Translations under genes and position numbers: made by a program
Shown: positions 565-6,661 of the stretch, piece by piece
Numbering within the stretch: position 1 is the first letter of the stretch
How the letters are laid out: each line of letters starts with the position of its first letter
The notes under the pieces: generated by a model
Seen by the model: only the letters and a program-made list of their open reading frames with translations
The model's database searches: none
What the model was told of the DNA's origin: nothing
Assembly: GCF_000196355.1 (NCBI RefSeq)
Contig: NC_007614.1
Span: forward strand, 150,001-182,000
Reading direction: 5' to 3'
DNA length: 32,000 nucleotides
DNA from: Nitrosospira multiformis ATCC 25196
GTDB lineage: Bacteria > Pseudomonadota > Gammaproteobacteria > Burkholderiales > Nitrosomonadaceae

Positions 565-2610
565 TCAGTTCCGGATCAGCTCCTGAAAGAGTTTTGCCCA
601 GCGCGCAATGGTGCCAGCATCAAACGCGCCGATGCCCTTTTTGAGCGCCTGTTCCTTGACGCGCTTTGCAACTTCAACTCTCCATTCATCCCGTAACACC
701 AGGTCCTGTGCTTCGGCCCAGGCCTGCACCTGCGCCACCACGGGCTTGCCGTTGACCAGGACGTCCGCAAAGGCCGTGTCCGTATTCCTCTCCCAGCGGT
801 CTATTACTTGTGCAAAAAACGGTGCAGGTATCAGATCTTCTGTCGTGGAGTTGCTGAAGAGAACGTAATTATCCGTCGAAAAGATACGCTCCTGCGCGTC
901 GCTGTACAAATCCGACTTCAACTCTGCATTGATCTGCTTTCCTGCTTCGTCATCCCGCAGGACTACCTTGGGCAGCGGCTCGTCGCGCCCACTAATGATG
1001 CTTGCGATCACGCCTACCGTTTTGCTGGCGCCAGCCGGCGGAAAGAGCAGTTCGCGCTTCGGGGCTATCTTGTTTGCCCCAATGAGGAGTGTCTTGATGG
1101 TCGAGAGATAATATTGATCCGAGACGCGCTGCACGACGACCGGTTGACAGCCCGTTACCATGCTCTCGGCAATATTCAGGTTCAAGGCCGAGTGAACCAC
1201 ATAGGCGGCTCCCGCCTGCCGGACATCCTTTTCCACGCTACGAAGGTCCGACGTCACTTGCGTCGTTCCGTTCGCGGAAACATATACCTTGCGCGCGCGT
1301 CCCAGGTGCTCTGCATCCAGCAGGAATGGTGAATGGGTCGTGTAGAGGATTTTGTTGACTTTTGCAAGACTGTCAAAGAAGGCAAAAAGGTTGCGCTGCG
1401 CCAGGGGGTGCAGGGACAATCCGGGCTCGTCCAGCAACAAGACGGCGTTCTGGTGCTCACCCCCGCTTTCCACGAGGAAGACCAGATAAAAACTCAGAAA
1501 CCACTGCAGCCCCGTGCTTCTGCTTTCGAGCTCAACTTCCTCCGGGCGGCGGTCATCGGAAACCCATATGCGGAAATGGCTTCCATCCGCTTCGAAGCGG
1601 AATTTGTAATCTCCCTGCTTCCACCAGTTTCTGAACTTTTCCGTCAGAAGCCCGCCTGCCGATTGCAGCAGGATGGAACGCTCCCTTTTCTTCATCGCGA
1701 TTTCCCGGATTTCTTCCACTGTGGGTTCACGACGACGGCCCTTGCGCCTTGGAAAGTCCCGCCCGAGTTCAAGAATTTCTCCCGGCTCGAGGCCTACGAA
1801 TTTAAAAAGAACGCGCAATGTACGCGACTTGGCTGCTTCTCTGGGCCCAAGGTCAGTGCGTTGAAGATTCTGTACTACGTGGGGAAGATAGATTTCAGAA
1901 TCGAGATTTCCGAATTCAGAGTAATAGACAAATTTGGGAAGGGAGTGGATGACCGTATCCACAACATCCTCTGCCTCTTCCCCCGATGATCTCCTGATCT
2001 CGCCAAGCTCTTCCCGCCGGGGGAAGGAGATCGAATAATCCCCATTGAAGTACCGTTTCACAGCGATGAGGGAGGCCTCTTCGCTGGAGATCTCCAGCTT
2101 GCCGCACAGCTCTTCTCCAAGCTCTCCTGCCTCAAATTCCGCCGTTATGAAGTGGAAGCTTTCCGGTGCCTGGCGCACAGGGCCGAATTGTTTTTTCGGG
2201 TAGTCGGAAGCCGGCACGATCTCTCCCCCGACTGCCGGATTCAGCTTCCAGAGCGGAACCAGCAGGTTTGTCTTGCCGGATTCGTTCACGCCGATGAGCG
2301 CGGTAACGCTGTCAACCTCAATCCAGCCACTGTTCTCCACCGAGCGAAAATTTGTGACCAGAAATCGGGTAAGGTGCATGGGGTGTATTATTCTGTCGTC
2401 TATTGCTTCTCCCGGGGCCGGGGCGTCAACCGGGCTGTCAACAGGACTTTCAACGGGACTTTCGCTGTTGCTTGTGGCTTCCGCATGATCCTGAGGCTCT
2501 GGTATCTCTGGTATGTCTGATATTCGGGGAAGGAGCAGCATGTCTTGCAATGGTTGCTTATTCATAAAGTCTGTGTCTTTTTCTTTGACAGGCAATATAT
2601 GTATCGTCAT
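565..2610 (-). CDS. Stand-alone ABC/SMC-type (AAA_15/21-like) ATPase of the OLD-nuclease-like class with a C-terminal Toprim-like region
   Basis: 681-aa ORF. Walker A GVNESGKT (aa 107-114), signature-like RSTGLQWFLSF (aa 364-374), Walker B VLLLDEPGLSLHP (aa 390-402), H-loop YTTHSPF (aa 423-429). The C-terminal ~190 aa carries VVVQRVSDQYYL and VVLRDDEAGK where OLD/Toprim proteins usually have xxVEGxxD and DxD. ATG at 2610 is preceded by agagag. An alternative ATG at 2379 (MHLTRF...) would drop a 77-aa low-complexity N-terminus (SPVESPVDSPVDAPAP). Confidence 0.8.
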   Translation of the reverse strand: MTIHILPVKEKDTDFMNKQPLQDMLLLPRISDIPEIPEPQDHAEATSNSESPVESPVDSPVDAPAPGEAIDDRIIHPMHLTRFLVTNFRSVENSGWIEVDSVTALIGVNESGKTNLLVPLWKLNPAVGGEIVPASDYPKKQFGPVRQAPESFHFITAEFEAGELGEELCGKLEISSEEASLIAVKRYFNGDYSISFPRREELGEIRRSSGEEAEDVVDTVIHSLPKFVYYSEFGNLDSEIYLPHVVQNLQRTDLGPREAAKSRTLRVLFKFVGLEPGEILELGRDFPRRKGRRREPTVEEIREIAMKKRERSILLQSAGGLLTEKFRNWWKQGDYKFRFEADGSHFRIWVSDDRRPEEVELESRSTGLQWFLSFYLVFLVESGGEHQNAVLLLDEPGLSLHPLAQRNLFAFFDSLAKVNKILYTTHSPFLLDAEHLGRARKVYVSANGTTQVTSDLRSVEKDVRQAGAAYVVHSALNLNIAESMVTGCQPVVVQRVSDQYYLSTIKTLLIGANKIAPKRELLFPPAGASKTVGVIASIISGRDEPLPKVVLRDDEAGKQINAELKSDLYSDAQERIFSTDNYVLFSNSTTEDLIPAPFFAQVIDRWERNTDTAFADVLVNGKPVVAQVQAWAEAQDLVLRDEWRVEVAKRVKEQALKKGIGAFDAGTIARWAKLFQELIRN

Positions 2611-2700
2611 TATAACTCTCTGATTGCTCAGGGCGGGTACTTAAAGAGCGTTTGTTGAGCCAGAATTTGCAATACTTTTCGACACTCTTGCCAACCCCCC

Positions 2701-2723
2701 AAAAAAGCCGCGGAACGCACGGC
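2701..2723 (-). terminator. Rho-independent terminator candidate downstream of the deaminase gene
   Basis: On the minus strand, gccgtgcgttccgcggc (6-bp GC-rich stem including one G-U pair, 5-nt loop) is followed directly by tttttt, about 50 nt after the stop at 2774. Confidence 0.5.
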
Positions 2724-2773
2724 CACGTCTTACCTCCTTATTCTTTTCCTGCTCCCATTCTCAGGTTGCAAAG

Positions 2774-4327: not shown

Positions 4328-5083
4328 ATGGTTACCGCTACATTCCGTTTTTATGAGGAACTGAATGACTTTCTCGTTCCCGAGCGGCGCAAGCGGGAAT
4401 TTTCCTGTCCCTGCGCCCGTGCAGCGACCACCAAGCATATGATCGAAGCACTGGGCGTCCCGCACACCGAAGTGGAGCTGGTGCTGGTAAATGGAGAATC
4501 GGTGGGGTTCGACCGGATACTGGAGCATGGCGACCGGGTCGCGGTCTTTCCCAAATTCGAAATGGTCGACGTCGCGCCCTTGTTGCGCGTGCGCGAGCAT
4601 CCCCTGCGGGTAACGCGCTTCATTGCAGATGCTCACCTAGGCGGTTTGGCCCACCTGTTGCGCATGACGGGTTTCGACACGCTGTACGACAATAATTATC
4701 ACGACCGCCAGATCGAATTGCTCGCTGCCCAGGAAAAGCGCATCGTGCTCACCCGCGACCGGGAATTGCTCAAGCGGCGTTCGATTACGCATGGATGCTA
4801 TGTGCGGACTTTGAAGCCACCTGAGCAGCTTTGTGAGATTTTCGATCGGCTGGACCTCGCGCACAGCATCAAGCCTTTTACCTTATGCCTGAACTGCAAC
4901 GCACCTCTGCGGCCTGTGGAGAAGAGTGTAGTGCTTGAGCGCCTGCCGCCGTCAGTACGCGAGCGCTTCGACCATTTCAGCACGTGCGATATCTGTCACC
5001 GGGTTTTCTGGGAGGGTTCGCACTGGCAGCGCATGCGGACGATGCTGGAGGAGTGTATTAAGCCAAACCGATTTGGGGGATAA
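4328..5083 (+). CDS. Mut7-C RNase (PIN-like, DUF82) with N-terminal ubiquitin/MoaD-like domain and C-terminal zinc ribbon
   Basis: 251 aa. The N-terminus FRFYEELNDFL...VELVLVNGESV is a beta-grasp-like module. RFIADAHLGGLAHLLRMTGFDT...IVLTRDRELLKR is the PIN-like core. The Cys pairs CLNCN ... CDICH form a zinc ribbon. Confidence 0.8.
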   Translation: MVTATFRFYEELNDFLVPERRKREFSCPCARAATTKHMIEALGVPHTEVELVLVNGESVGFDRILEHGDRVAVFPKFEMVDVAPLLRVREHPLRVTRFIADAHLGGLAHLLRMTGFDTLYDNNYHDRQIELLAAQEKRIVLTRDRELLKRRSITHGCYVRTLKPPEQLCEIFDRLDLAHSIKPFTLCLNCNAPLRPVEKSVVLERLPPSVRERFDHFSTCDICHRVFWEGSHWQRMRTMLEECIKPNRFGG

Positions 5084-5335: not shown

Positions 5336-5411
5336 GGGTCGTTAGCTCAGCTGGTAGAGCAGCGGACTCTTAATCCGTAGGTCGAGCGTTCGAATCGCTC
5401 ACGACCCACCA
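5336..5411 (+). tRNA. tRNA-Lys (anticodon CUU), CCA encoded
   Basis: gggtcgttagctcagctggtagagcagcggactcttaatccgtaggtcgagcgttcgaatcgctcacgacccacca. The 7-bp acceptor stem gggtcgt/acgaccc, D arm, anticodon loop c-t-CTT-a-a, T arm gagcg-ttcgaat-cgctc and terminal CCA are all present. Closely resembles enterobacterial tRNA-Lys. Confidence 0.95.
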
Positions 5412-5499: not shown

Positions 5500-6180
5500 T
5501 TACGGGGGCGGTGGCTGTGGAGCAACTTGTACCCAGTCACCGGGACAATCCTTGACATAAGGATAATAACCTTCCGATTCCCGGCAATAATACCAATAGC
5601 CGGATGGGAGCTGAGCCGTATTTTGCGTGTCATTTTGTTCCGGAAGGTTTTGTTGGATGTATACCGGCGGTGCTGCAGGCACGGGCACCGCGATTGGATA
5701 AGGATACATGGGCGGATAGGGATAATAAGGCGGCCCATAAGCCAGGGCACCATAACCCAGGCCATATCCTAATCCCAACCCTAGCCCATATCCCCCAAAT
5801 CCAAATCCCAAGCCGTAACCGTAGCCACGATAGAAACCGCGCGGGCCCCGGTAGTAACCGAATCCGCCCCCGCGATAGCGGCCGACTCCACCGCCTCGGT
5901 AATAACCGACTCCTCCGCCAAAATGCTCTCCACCCCCATAATGCATTCCTCCCCCGTGCGCCCATCCCCCACCCCCGATGTGCCCACCGCCTCCAAAATG
6001 CATTCCTCCGCCTCCCATATGTCCGCCCCCTCCCATATGTCCGCCCCCTCCTATATGTCCGCCGCCACCAAATACTCCCCCTCCATGTCCTCCCCCGCCA
6101 CCTCCGCGCGCCCATACTGAAACGCCAGGAATCAACCCAAGCATGAGAAGGACAACGCACATCAATTTAATCTTCTTCAT
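5500..6180 (-). CDS. Exported Gly/His-rich low-complexity protein, paralogue 1 (226 aa), with a Cys-bracketed C-terminal module
   Basis: The best start is ATG 6180 (MKKIKLMCVVLLMLGLIPGVSVWA, signal-peptide-like), not the track start at 6261. Order of blocks: GGGGH(I/M) repeats; an RGG/GYY block; a GLG/GYG block; a Pro/Tyr block; VPAAPPVYIQQ; then YWYYCRESEGYYPYVKDCPGDWVQVAPQP. Confidence 0.8.
   Translation of the reverse strand: MKKIKLMCVVLLMLGLIPGVSVWARGGGGGGHGGGVFGGGGHIGGGGHMGGGGHMGGGGMHFGGGGHIGGGGWAHGGGMHYGGGEHFGGGVGYYRGGGVGRYRGGGFGYYRGPRGFYRGYGYGLGFGFGGYGLGLGLGYGLGYGALAYGPPYYPYPPMYPYPIAVPVPAAPPVYIQQNLPEQNDTQNTAQLPSGYWYYCRESEGYYPYVKDCPGDWVQVAPQPPPP
6014..6067 (-). repeat. Three tandem 18-bp units inside the Gly/His-rich CDS, each encoding GGGGH(M/I)
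   Basis: cccatatgtccgccccct (6014-6031), cccatatgtccgccccct (6032-6049), cctatatgtccgccgcca (6050-6067). These are in-frame coding repeats, not a CRISPR array. Confidence 0.9.
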
Positions 6181-6241
6181 ACAGATCTCGGTCCCTATCG
6201 GTCCTATCGCGGGCTTGACTTGATCCATATTTCTTTTGGGA

Positions 6242-6661
6242 TTAACGCAACCAGAATCCACCGACTTTCTGGTCCTTCAGGGCCATGAAAATGAGAACGT
6301 CATCATTCCCGTCCTTGAATACCACCTTCCAGACATATACGTCGAATCCCTGTTGGCGCAGTGTGGTCAGGAATATCGTGGTGTAGCCTTGCTTGAGGCG
6401 CGAGGCGAGGGATTGGTTGATGCTGCTGAGCATCTCCTTTGTCATCCCGGCTTGAAATGCTTCATCTCCTGGCGATACAAAATCGGCCAATGAGTTAGCC
6501 AGAATAGCTGACACCATGTTTTTCATGATTGCTTCAATGGGCTGTGGCGCCTGCGCCGATTGCCGCGCTTGCGCCAGCACCACAGAAGAGGTGAATGCAA
6601 GAAAAAATATGACAGAAAGGACCAGGCGATTTGCAGAGGACGTCAAAAGAGGCAGATGCAT
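6242..6661 (-). CDS. Small exported hypothetical protein
   Basis: ATG at 6661 (or 6673) gives MHLPLLTSSANRLVLSVIFFLAFTSSVVLAQA, which is signal-peptide-like. The track start at 6799 is unlikely. The gene ends 61 nt upstream of the start of paralogue 1 and is probably co-transcribed with it. No family recognised. Confidence 0.55.
   Translation of the reverse strand: MHLPLLTSSANRLVLSVIFFLAFTSSVVLAQARQSAQAPQPIEAIMKNMVSAILANSLADFVSPGDEAFQAGMTKEMLSSINQSLASRLKQGYTTIFLTTLRQQGFDVYVWKVVFKDGNDDVLIFMALKDQKVGGFWLR

What the first reader, a model, noticed from the sequence alone, without database searches (positions are those of the whole stretch)
565..2610. Stand-alone OLD-like ABC ATPase with non-canonical Toprim residues and a disordered repeat N-terminus
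The ATPase motifs are intact (Walker A, signature-like, Walker B, H-loop). The C-terminal region aligns by eye to the Toprim nuclease of OLD/Gabija-GajA/PARIS-type defence proteins.

Where those proteins have the catalytic Glu-Gly (xVEGxxD) this protein has Gln-Arg (VVVQRVSD). Where they have the DxD metal motif it has DDE (VVLRDDEAG). So this is either a divergent active site or an inactivated nuclease retained as a sensor or scaffold.

The ORF also starts with a 77-aa acidic, Pro/Ser-rich extension containing SPVE/SPVD/SPVD/APAP repeats that is absent from typical family members. The gene has its own transcription unit, since a terminator candidate lies at 2701-2723 upstream of it.
Basis: partly seen in the sequence, partly recalled or inferred. 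Interest (0 to 1): 0.55.

Follow-up and report, generated by a model that had tools for sequence, protein, structure and literature searches.

The report
OLD-family ATPase with a dismantled nuclease site
This Nitrosospira multiformis gene encodes a stand-alone relative of the OLD anti-phage ATPase-nucleases that has lost key nuclease metal-binding residues yet is still kept intact by selection, so it is probably a natural "dead-nuclease" version that works through its ATPase.

Summary
ORF 565-2610 (-) encodes an intact ABC ATPase joined to a C-terminal Toprim-fold domain and a helical domain. Its best structural matches are solved OLD nucleases.

It belongs to a large, uncharacterised, stand-alone OLD subfamily (837 clusters). 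The query has Q494-R495 there.

The loss is lineage-wide. All 18 Nitrosospira/Nitrosovibrio sequences compared lack E494 and/or D552, and all 103 more distant homologs keep both. Only 3 of 47 conserved Toprim sites changed: E494, H500 and D552. dN/dS in the Toprim region is 0.05-0.21, like the ATPase, so this is not a pseudogene.

Most likely it is a natural pseudo-nuclease acting through its ATPase. This fits the reported dispensability of the Toprim domain in E. coli YbjD.

The N-terminal extension is real as an ORF. It occurs only in the N. multiformis group, is built of variable 9-, 12- and 15-nt repeats, and evolves almost neutrally. If translated, it starts at M16, not M1. The upstream terminator is confirmed.

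Verdict: new variant of a known kind, moderate interest.

The parts
565..2610 (-). Longest ORF (681 aa including stop codon 565-567): OLD-family ABC ATPase plus degenerate Toprim
565..2379 (-). Conserved core CDS from M78 (604 aa). This is the start used by every homolog outside the N. multiformis group, and short-form family members of 593-629 aa align end to end with it.
2380..2565 (-). N-terminal extension M16-P77: MNKQPLQDMLLLPRI, then acidic Pro/Ser-rich variable repeats. Open in frame in all 8 N. multiformis-group sequences, evolving nearly neutrally. Translation is unproven.
2566..2610 (-). M1-F15, probably not coding. The frame is broken by TAA in relative L001. The M1 ATG sits inside a conserved TTATAATG / CACATATATTGC upstream element that is also present, without an ATG, in the non-coding leader of the Nitrosospira sp. 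Is2 homolog.
2426..2463 (-). 12-nt tandem repeat x3 (SPVE/SPVD/SPVD); copy number varies between strains
2497..2523 (-). 9-nt tandem repeat x3 (IPE/IPE/PQ region); expanded to a long PDxPD array in L015
2269..2292 (-). Walker A, GVNESGKT (K113 in 119 of 120 homologs; the remaining one has a gap there)
1504..1518 (-). ABC signature-like STGLQ
1426..1440 (-). Walker B, LLLDE (D394-E395 invariant)
1333..1335 (-). H-loop His426 (invariant)
1993..1998 (-). I205/R206: the point where long-form family members carry about 97 extra residues in the ATPase insertion. The query is a short form.
826..1152 (-). Toprim-fold domain (res 487-595), beta-alpha repeats, modelled at high confidence
1126..1131 (-). 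Q494-R495, where the family has the invariant catalytic Glu-Gly (metal A ligand)
949..957 (-). R552-D553-D554, where the family has D-x-D. The first Asp is lost and the second is kept.
838..846 (-). T589-T590-E591, where the family has E-x-E. E591 is invariant and kept; E589 is lost in the N. multiformis group.
568..825 (-). C-terminal helical domain (res 596-681), modelled at pLDDT above 90 and under purifying selection
2697..2724 (-). Intrinsic-terminator-like hairpin plus T-run after the upstream deaminase gene; separates the two transcription units

Best explanation
The gene encodes a stand-alone OLD-family protein of Nitrosospira multiformis. [quoted passage not shown]

It belongs to a widespread, uncharacterised OLD subfamily with forms of about 600 and about 700 aa. 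Ordinary members keep a complete two-metal Toprim site: E494, D498, D552, D554, E589 and E591 in query numbering.

In the Nitrosospira/Nitrosovibrio lineage the metal-A site has been taken apart. E494 became Q first. D552 then became G, S, R, H or T in different branches, and H500 became Y. The N. multiformis group also has G495->R and E589->T. The rest of the protein stayed under purifying selection.

The most likely reading is a natural pseudo-nuclease. It no longer cleaves nucleic acid by the OLD two-metal mechanism and acts through ATP binding and hydrolysis by the ATPase head. The dead Toprim and helical module is kept as a binding or autoregulatory part that packs on the ATPase.

Shown: domain identity, fold, which residues are lost, the clade-wide pattern, selection, and single-gene context. 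Inferred: loss of nuclease activity, ATPase-driven output, and any defence role.
For: - ATPase: the motifs are intact and invariant across homologs.
- Full-length model: pLDDT 82.8. Best PDB match is Thermus scotoductus class 1 OLD 6p74 (E 1e-13), followed by PtuA and GajA.
- C-terminal model: pLDDT 88.6. The top six PDB matches are OLD C-terminal regions or OLD itself: 6nk8 (prob 1.0, TM 0.48-0.52 over 221 columns), 6njw/6njx/6njv and 6p74.
- Register: hhalign to P2 Old gives 93% probability and aligns the family VEG to Old E398. The PADLOC Old model is the top hit for canonical members and spans both E and DxD.
- Clade pattern: 18 of 18 Nitrosospira-clade sequences lack E494 and/or D552, against 0 of 103 other close homologs.
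- Specificity: only 3 of 47 conserved Toprim sites switched, namely E494, H500 and D552.
- Order of events: N. briensis keeps DGD but already has Q494.
- Selection: dN/dS is 0.05-0.21 in the Toprim, 0.02-0.19 in the helical domain and 0.09-0.20 in the ATPase, with dS up to more than 1 between two 'dead' lineages.
- Literature: alanine substitution of the metal-A triplet E377/D431/D433 was among the Ts OLD active-site mutants tested in the cleavage assays. The paper's abstract states that mutants perturbing DNA cleavage in vitro also impair P2 OLD killing of recBC- cells (PMC7049728). In E. coli YbjD, the anti-phage phenotypes survive deletion of the Toprim domain but not of the ATPase (PMC13261556).
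Against: - There is no biochemistry for any member of this subfamily.
- The metal-B ligands D498 and E591, and D554, are kept. The query has gained an extra acidic residue, D553.
- The archaeal OLD protein Cran1 is an active nickase with Leu at the first DxD position (PMC12796447). Loss of D552 alone therefore does not prove inactivity.
- Foldseek E-values for the isolated C-terminal domain are modest (2e-3 to 4e-2).
- The gene lacks a recognisable Shine-Dalgarno at any candidate start, so expression level is unknown.
Confidence: 0.6

Rival explanations
1. It is still a nuclease, with a remodelled active site. The retained acidic residues (D498, D553, D554, E555, E591), with Q494 as a neutral ligand, support one-metal or altered two-metal catalysis, for example weak nicking.
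For: Metal-B ligands and D554 are retained. D553 is newly acidic in the N. multiformis group. Cran1 is active with Leu at the first DxD position (PMC12796447). Vc OLD, which has a variant ligand set, is a nickase (PMC12392090). The Toprim domain is under strong purifying selection.
Against: Position 494 is invariant Glu in all 103 canonical close homologs and in 87 of 95 distant representatives. Within the clade it is Q, L or R, and position 552 is G, S, R, H or T. The lost positions therefore drift instead of settling on one alternative chemistry. D553 is acidic only in the N. multiformis subgroup.
Confidence: 0.22
2. It is the sensor half of a split system. The dead-Toprim ATPase works with a separate effector encoded elsewhere, as AriA does with AriB or PtuA with PtuB. 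The adjacent deaminase is the only nearby candidate.
For: PADLOC AriA, PtuA and AbiLi ATPase models hit the ATPase part. A dCMP_cyt_deam_1 deaminase lies directly upstream on the same strand in N. multiformis and in some relatives.
Against: A terminator separates the two genes. The deaminase is absent upstream of the homologs in Nitrosovibrio Nv6 and N. briensis, where about 1 kb of mostly non-coding DNA lies instead. It is also absent in Nitrosospira sp. Is2. No gene is conserved next to canonical family members. A distant partner cannot be tested here.
Confidence: 0.1
3. It is a decaying gene on its way to becoming a pseudogene.
For: Catalytic residues are lost. The Shine-Dalgarno at the ancestral start is lost: duplex energy +0.2 kcal/mol, against -5.3 to -8.5 in homologs. 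Neighbours are housekeeping-type genes.
Against: Intact full-length ORFs occur in every complete locus examined from more than 15 Nitrosospira/Nitrosovibrio genomes and metagenome contigs. dN/dS is about 0.1 over all domains, with dS above 1. 266 of 278 family-conserved sites are retained.
Confidence: 0.05

Closest known systems
Class 1 OLD family nucleases (P2 Old, Thermus scotoductus OLD 6p74, Vibrio cholerae OLD, E. coli YbjD/OldB)
   Same: Single isolated gene. N-terminal ABC ATPase with an inserted helical region and a C-terminal Toprim. 6p74 is the best sequence-profile and Foldseek match. P2 Old aligns by hhalign through the ATPase-Toprim junction. The PADLOC Old model is the best model for canonical members of the subfamily.
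   Different: The metal-A Glu and the first Asp of DxD are replaced. There is an extra C-terminal helical domain of about 86 aa that Ts OLD lacks. Sequence similarity to characterised class 1 proteins is confined to the ATPase and the first Toprim strand. No Toprim Pfam model passes threshold.
Class 2 OLD / Gabija GajA (Burkholderia pseudomallei OLD C-terminal region 6nk8; B. cereus GajA)
   Same: The isolated C-terminal model matches the class 2 Toprim-plus-helical-domain structures best, over its whole length. GajA full-length structures are high Foldseek hits.
   Different: No UvrD/GajB-like helicase gene sits next to the query or any homolog examined. GajA PADLOC models hit only the ATPase.
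E. coli YbjD (OldB), as characterised in PMC13261556
   Same: Chromosomal, stand-alone OLD protein among ordinary genes. Its anti-phage and toxicity phenotypes need the ATPase but not the Toprim domain. That is the behaviour expected of the protein found here.
   Different: YbjD still has its acidic Toprim residues. Here nature has removed them. No homology closer than family level was shown.
Nuclease-less ABC ATPase sensors of defence systems (AriA of PARIS, PtuA of Septu/retrons)
   Same: Same ATPase clade, with good PADLOC and Foldseek hits on the ATPase part. They act as ATP-dependent sensors or scaffolds and not as nucleases.
   Different: Those proteins lack a Toprim domain and work with a separately encoded nuclease. 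The query keeps a fused, conserved Toprim-fold domain and has no conserved neighbour.

Membership tests
OLD family (ABC ATPase + Toprim) | N-terminal ABC ATPase with Walker A Lys, Walker B acidic pair and H-loop | tested here: met
   GVNESGKT, LLLDE and H426 are present, and invariant in homologs. AAA_15 and AAA_21 score above Pfam cut-offs.
OLD family (ABC ATPase + Toprim) | C-terminal Toprim fold | tested here: met
   AF2 C-terminal model pLDDT 88.6 with a beta-alpha-beta core. The top six PDB Foldseek matches are all OLD C-terminal regions or OLD itself. hhalign to P2 Old gives 93%. Weak Toprim_2 and Toprim Pfam hits occur in canonical members only.
OLD family (ABC ATPase + Toprim) | Conserved acidic metal ligands: Glu in strand 1, acid at Glu+4, DxD after strand 3, and a downstream S/T/E-x-E | tested here: not met
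   E494->Q and D552->R (also G495->R and E589->T). D498, D554 and E591 are kept.
OLD family (ABC ATPase + Toprim) | Helical dimerisation insertion within the ATPase | tested here: inconclusive
   The model shows helices in the insertion (model residues 134-253). The query is a short form lacking about 97 residues present in long-form members. Oligomeric state was not modelled.
OLD family (ABC ATPase + Toprim) | Metal-dependent nuclease activity | not testable with these tools
   Needs purified protein.
Class 1 OLD | Isolated single gene with no associated helicase, retron or split Toprim partner | tested here: met
   The query is flanked by a terminator-separated deaminase and a convergent DMFA2_C gene. 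No neighbour is conserved across 20+ homolog loci.
Class 1 OLD | Toprim without the extra helical domain or insert of class 2 (Schiltz 2020) | tested here: not met
   Residues 596-681 form a confident helical domain. The best fold match over 221 columns is the class 2 C-terminal region 6nk8.
Class 2 OLD (Gabija GajA) | [quoted passage not shown] | tested here: not met
   No helicase gene was found in any locus examined.
Class 3 OLD (retron effector) | Adjacent reverse transcriptase and ncRNA | tested here: not met
   No RT lies in the flanks. NCBIfam retron_eff_Eco8 scores 25.9 bits against a cut-off of 250.
Class 4 OLD (PARIS AriA/AriB) | ATPase AriA with a separate (or fused) DUF4435-type Toprim AriB | tested here: not met
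   The AriA and AriAB PADLOC models match only the ATPase part. AriB (8ux9_A) ranks 9th with probability 0.28. There is no AriB-like neighbour.
AbiL (AbiLi/AbiLii) | AbiLi ATPase followed by an AbiLii partner gene | tested here: not met
   The AbiLi model hits the ATPase only (2e-15). No co-directional partner ORF lies downstream; the next gene is convergent.

The most novel reading that the evidence does not exclude
A whole genus-level lineage of ammonia-oxidising bacteria has kept, at a mostly syntenic chromosomal site and for a long time (dS above 1), an OLD protein whose nuclease site was deliberately dismantled. This would be a domesticated OLD pseudo-nuclease whose ATPase carries out a nuclease-independent function: either a new kind of single-protein abortive or defence mechanism, or a housekeeping role as with archaeal Cran1. 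In N. multiformis the start codon may also have moved into the former 5' leader, creating a new hypervariable acidic repeat tail. Similar catalytic-residue losses recur independently in about 8-13% of clusters of the subfamily.
Probability: 0.3. Interest if true: 0.65.

Novelty: new variant of a known kind. Interest (0 to 1): 0.45.

Why it matters
Stand-alone OLD proteins are the least understood class of this family. It is still open what their ATPase does and whether the nuclease is always the effector.

A naturally nuclease-site-deficient lineage that is nevertheless kept under selection is an evolutionary experiment bearing on that question. It agrees with the recent, surprising finding that the E. 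coli YbjD Toprim is dispensable.

It also gives matched material for direct tests of a nuclease-independent OLD function:
- 'dead' Nitrosospira proteins;
- canonical relatives at about 60% identity;
- an intermediate, N. briensis, with Q494 but an intact DxD.

The finding also marks out a large OLD subfamily (837 clusters at 50% identity). PADLOC (tested on three canonical members) and Pfam recognise the ATPase but give no above-threshold Toprim annotation; NCBIfam, tested on the query only, likewise names only the ATPase.

Tried and rejected
- HMM searches with the C-terminal domain. The family profile against PDB sequences gave only insignificant ubiquitin-like hits. No Pfam Toprim model reached threshold for the query.
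- The viral structure library gave nothing significant.
- A forced global hhalign of the C-terminal profile to the P2 Old C-terminus puts DxD on Old D-C-D, but it is not significant on its own (E 0.096).
- Rfam on the leader region gave nothing meaningful: RefA1 at 20 bits against a cut-off of 94.
- Deaminase as a partner gene: rejected, because it is not conserved and a terminator lies between.
- Pseudogene: rejected on dN/dS and ORF integrity.
- The '97-aa deletion' as a clade-specific lesion: rejected. Short forms of 593-629 aa with canonical active sites (for example P0126, P0132 and P0162) occur elsewhere in the family.
- M1 as the start codon: rejected. There is a TAA in L001, and the ATG lies in a conserved TATAAT-like element.
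- Second copy: no second OLD-like gene is present in the window.
Full report
**What is there.** The window carries a 681-codon ORF at 565-2610 on the minus strand. Pfam finds the OLD/AbiEii-type ABC ATPase families AAA_15 (3.7e-19) and AAA_21 (6.7e-15), but no Toprim model. PADLOC models AriA, Old, AbiLi, HEC-01A, GajA and PtuA all match, but only up to about residue 466, which is the ATPase. NCBIfam gives only far sub-threshold hits. Walker A (GVNESGKT), a signature-like STGLQ, Walker B (LLLDE) and H-loop H426 are present. They are invariant in 120 homologs, apart from one gapped sequence at Walker A.

**Family.** More than 4600 database proteins are related.
- The closest are from Nitrosospira. 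A scan of species-representative genomes identifies the window as Nitrosospira multiformis, 98% identical to strains Nl18 and Nl7.
- Beyond the genus there is a tight family at about 60% identity, of about 695-705 aa, in Alpha-, Beta- and Gammaproteobacteria, Chloroflexi and others.
- A profile of the C-terminal 221 residues finds 837 clusters (50% identity) at E<=1e-3 among 1.84 billion representatives, and 133 at E<=1e-30.
- Both long (~700 aa) and short (~593-629 aa) forms exist. The short forms align end to end with query residues 78-679. The ~97-residue gap after I205 is therefore a family-wide length polymorphism of the ATPase insertion and not a lesion of this gene.

**Is the C-terminus a Toprim, and is the register right?** Four lines of evidence say yes.
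- An AlphaFold model of residues 78-681 (pLDDT 82.8) matches the class 1 OLD nuclease of Thermus scotoductus best (6p74, E 1e-13, 664 aligned columns). PtuA and GajA follow.
- A separate model of residues 461-681 (pLDDT 88.6, pTM 0.85) has a beta-alpha-beta core followed by helices. Its six best PDB matches are all OLD structures. They are the class 2 C-terminal regions of Burkholderia (6nk8, probability 1.0, TM 0.48-0.52 over 221 columns) and Xanthomonas, and 6p74. The E-values are modest, 2e-3 to 4e-2.
- hhalign of the family profile against phage P2 Old gives 93% probability (E 3e-7). It runs from Walker B through the conserved HSA(L/F) linker into the first Toprim strand, and it puts the family V-E-G on Old LLVEG, E398.
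- For canonical members the PADLOC Old model is the top hit. Its alignment spans both the Glu and the DxD, for example P0098 residues 395-570 with E507 and D565/D567.

The query aligns to these members without gaps. Q494-R495 therefore sit on the family E-G. The family D-x-D corresponds to R552-D553-D554. The DxD assignment (D553/D554/E555) is one residue off: the first Asp is lost and the second is retained.

In Ts OLD the metal-A ligands are E377, D431 and D433, and the metal-B ligands are D381, S478 and E480 (PMC7049728). By motif spacing the query has lost two of the three metal-A ligands. Of the metal-B ligands it keeps D498 and E591 but has T589 where the family has Glu.

**The loss is lineage-wide and site-specific.**
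- Among the 120 closest homologs plus the query, all 18 sequences of the Nitrosospira/Nitrosovibrio clade lack D552, and 17 of the 18 also lack E494. Position 494 is Q in 15, R in one and L in one. One sequence keeps E but has Asn for the adjacent Gly. Position 552 is G, S, R, H or T. All 103 others have E-G and D-x-D.
- Of the 278 sites that are at least 90% conserved in the canonical set, only 12 are switched in the clade. Within the Toprim domain it is 3 of 47: E494, H500 (to Tyr) and D552.
- In N. briensis Nsp8 the protein has Q494 but still D-G-D, so E494Q probably came first.
- Among 95 distant representatives, 12 deviate at one of the three positions and 8 lack the Glu. Such losses have therefore recurred in the subfamily. 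E591 is invariant.

**It is not a pseudogene.** Nei-Gojobori dN/dS between N. multiformis-group genes is 0.09-0.12 for the ATPase and 0.05-0.13 for the Toprim region. Between long-form 'dead' genes of different species it is 0.10-0.20 for the ATPase and 0.11-0.21 for the Toprim region, with dS from 0.2 to above 1. Full-length ORFs are intact in every complete locus examined.

**Context.** The gene stands alone.
- Upstream, on the same strand, lies a 147-aa dCMP_cyt_deam_1 deaminase. It is followed by a hairpin and T-run at 2724-2706.
- Downstream is a convergent DMFA2_C gene.
- The wider neighbourhood is housekeeping-like: a GNAT, a Mut7-C RNase, tRNA-Lys, and PCMT.
- The GNAT and/or deaminase neighbourhood is shared by most Nitrosospira/Nitrosovibrio homologs, which suggests mainly vertical descent. 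The deaminase is missing in Nv6 and N. briensis, and strain Is2 has a different site, so there is no conserved partner.
- Canonical members sit singly beside toxin-antitoxin pairs, integrases, IS21 and SIR2/KAP NTPase genes. That is mobile or defence-island-like DNA.

**N-terminal extension.** All homologs outside the N. multiformis group start at the query's M78. Their starts carry Shine-Dalgarno sequences with duplex energy -5.3 to -8.5 kcal/mol. The query has none at M1 (-3.2), M16 (-0.9) or M78 (+0.2).

The extension DNA is homologous to the non-coding leader of the Nitrosospira sp. Is2 gene. That includes a TTATA(A/T)T...CACATATATTGC block that contains the query's M1 ATG. The M1 frame is cut by TAA in relative L001, so M1 is very unlikely to be the start.

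From M16 (MNKQxLQDxLLLPRI) the evidence points both ways.
- For translation:
  - The frame is open in all 8 N. multiformis-group sequences, although the extension, counted from its first Met, ranges from 66 to 119 codons.
  - That length variation comes from tandem repeats with units of 9, 12 and 15 nt, all multiples of three.
  - The other two frames have 2-5 stops each.
- Against translation:
  - dN/dS is 0.36-0.92.
  - There is no third-position bias.
  - The M16 region is more conserved at the nucleotide level than the coding control.

I rate translation from M16 at about 0.6. If real, it is a young, disordered, hypervariable acidic tail captured from the 5' leader.

**Mechanism.**
- Shown: an intact ABC ATPase, a retained Toprim fold plus helical domain, a dismantled metal-A site, and long purifying selection.
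- Inferred: the protein no longer cleaves by the two-metal OLD mechanism and acts through its ATPase, with the dead Toprim module kept for binding or autoregulation.
- Consistent with E. coli YbjD, whose anti-phage and toxicity phenotypes need the ATPase but not the Toprim (PMC13261556), and with OLD relatives that act as ATPase sensors (AriA, PtuA).
- Main rival: residual or altered nuclease activity. Cran1 is active with Leu at the first DxD position (PMC12796447). However, the drifting identity of residues 494 and 552 within the clade argues against a new fixed chemistry.

**Classification and novelty.** By context it is class 1 (single gene). By C-terminal architecture it resembles class 2, without GajB. 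It is not class 3 or class 4. A recent phylogeny reports at least 11 uncharacterised OLD clades (PMC12796447), and this subfamily may be one of them; that was not tested. I found no paper describing a natural lineage of OLD proteins with a dismantled Toprim site. Verdict: a new variant of a known kind, of moderate interest.

Noticed in passing
window 2585-2700 (-); L005 5770-5880: Two short non-coding blocks upstream of the gene, GTGTCGAAAAG(T/C)ATT and GGTTATA(A/T)T..CACATATATTGC, are conserved between N. multiformis and the Nitrosospira sp. Is2 homolog even though the upstream genes differ. The gene therefore seems to travel with its own leader or promoter. The second block contains a perfect TATAAT on the sense strand and also scores as a sigma-70-like promoter on the antisense strand (2585-2613 +, 10/12).
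   Followed up: partly
L013-L017, L001-L003 (N-terminal extension region); window 2380-2565: The extension is a strain-level variable-number repeat region, 66 to 119 codons counted from its first Met. L015 carries a long PDxPD array and L016 carries VVSEA x3. It could serve as a strain marker, or as an example of coding sequence born from a 5' leader.
   Followed up: partly
P0128, P0186, P0205, P0211, P0219, P0228, P0239, P0268 (representatives): Other, distantly related clusters of the same subfamily also lack the catalytic Glu (A, K, P, N or Q), and often the E-x-E Glu as well. E591 is never lost. This suggests repeated independent nuclease-site loss.
   Followed up: partly
window 5500-6261 (-): A 253-aa ORF encodes a signal-peptide-like N-terminus followed by long GGGGH(I/M)GGGG and YG(L/Y)G glycine/histidine/tyrosine-rich repeats and a Pro/Tyr-rich tail. 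It lies next to tRNA-Lys(CTT) at 5336-5411 (+).
   Followed up: no
window 4328-5083 (+): Mut7-C RNase domain protein with an N-terminal ubiquitin-like (Ub-Mut7C/ThiS) domain. It is syntenic with the GNAT, deaminase and OLD-like genes in N. multiformis relatives.
   Followed up: no
model residues 383-409 (full-length residues 460-486): The linker helix QAGAAYVVHSALNLNIAES is among the most conserved stretches of the family and aligns to HSAFTLS of P2 Old. Yet it is the only low-confidence part (pLDDT below 50) of the full-length model. It may be a mobile hinge between the ATPase and the Toprim.
   Followed up: no
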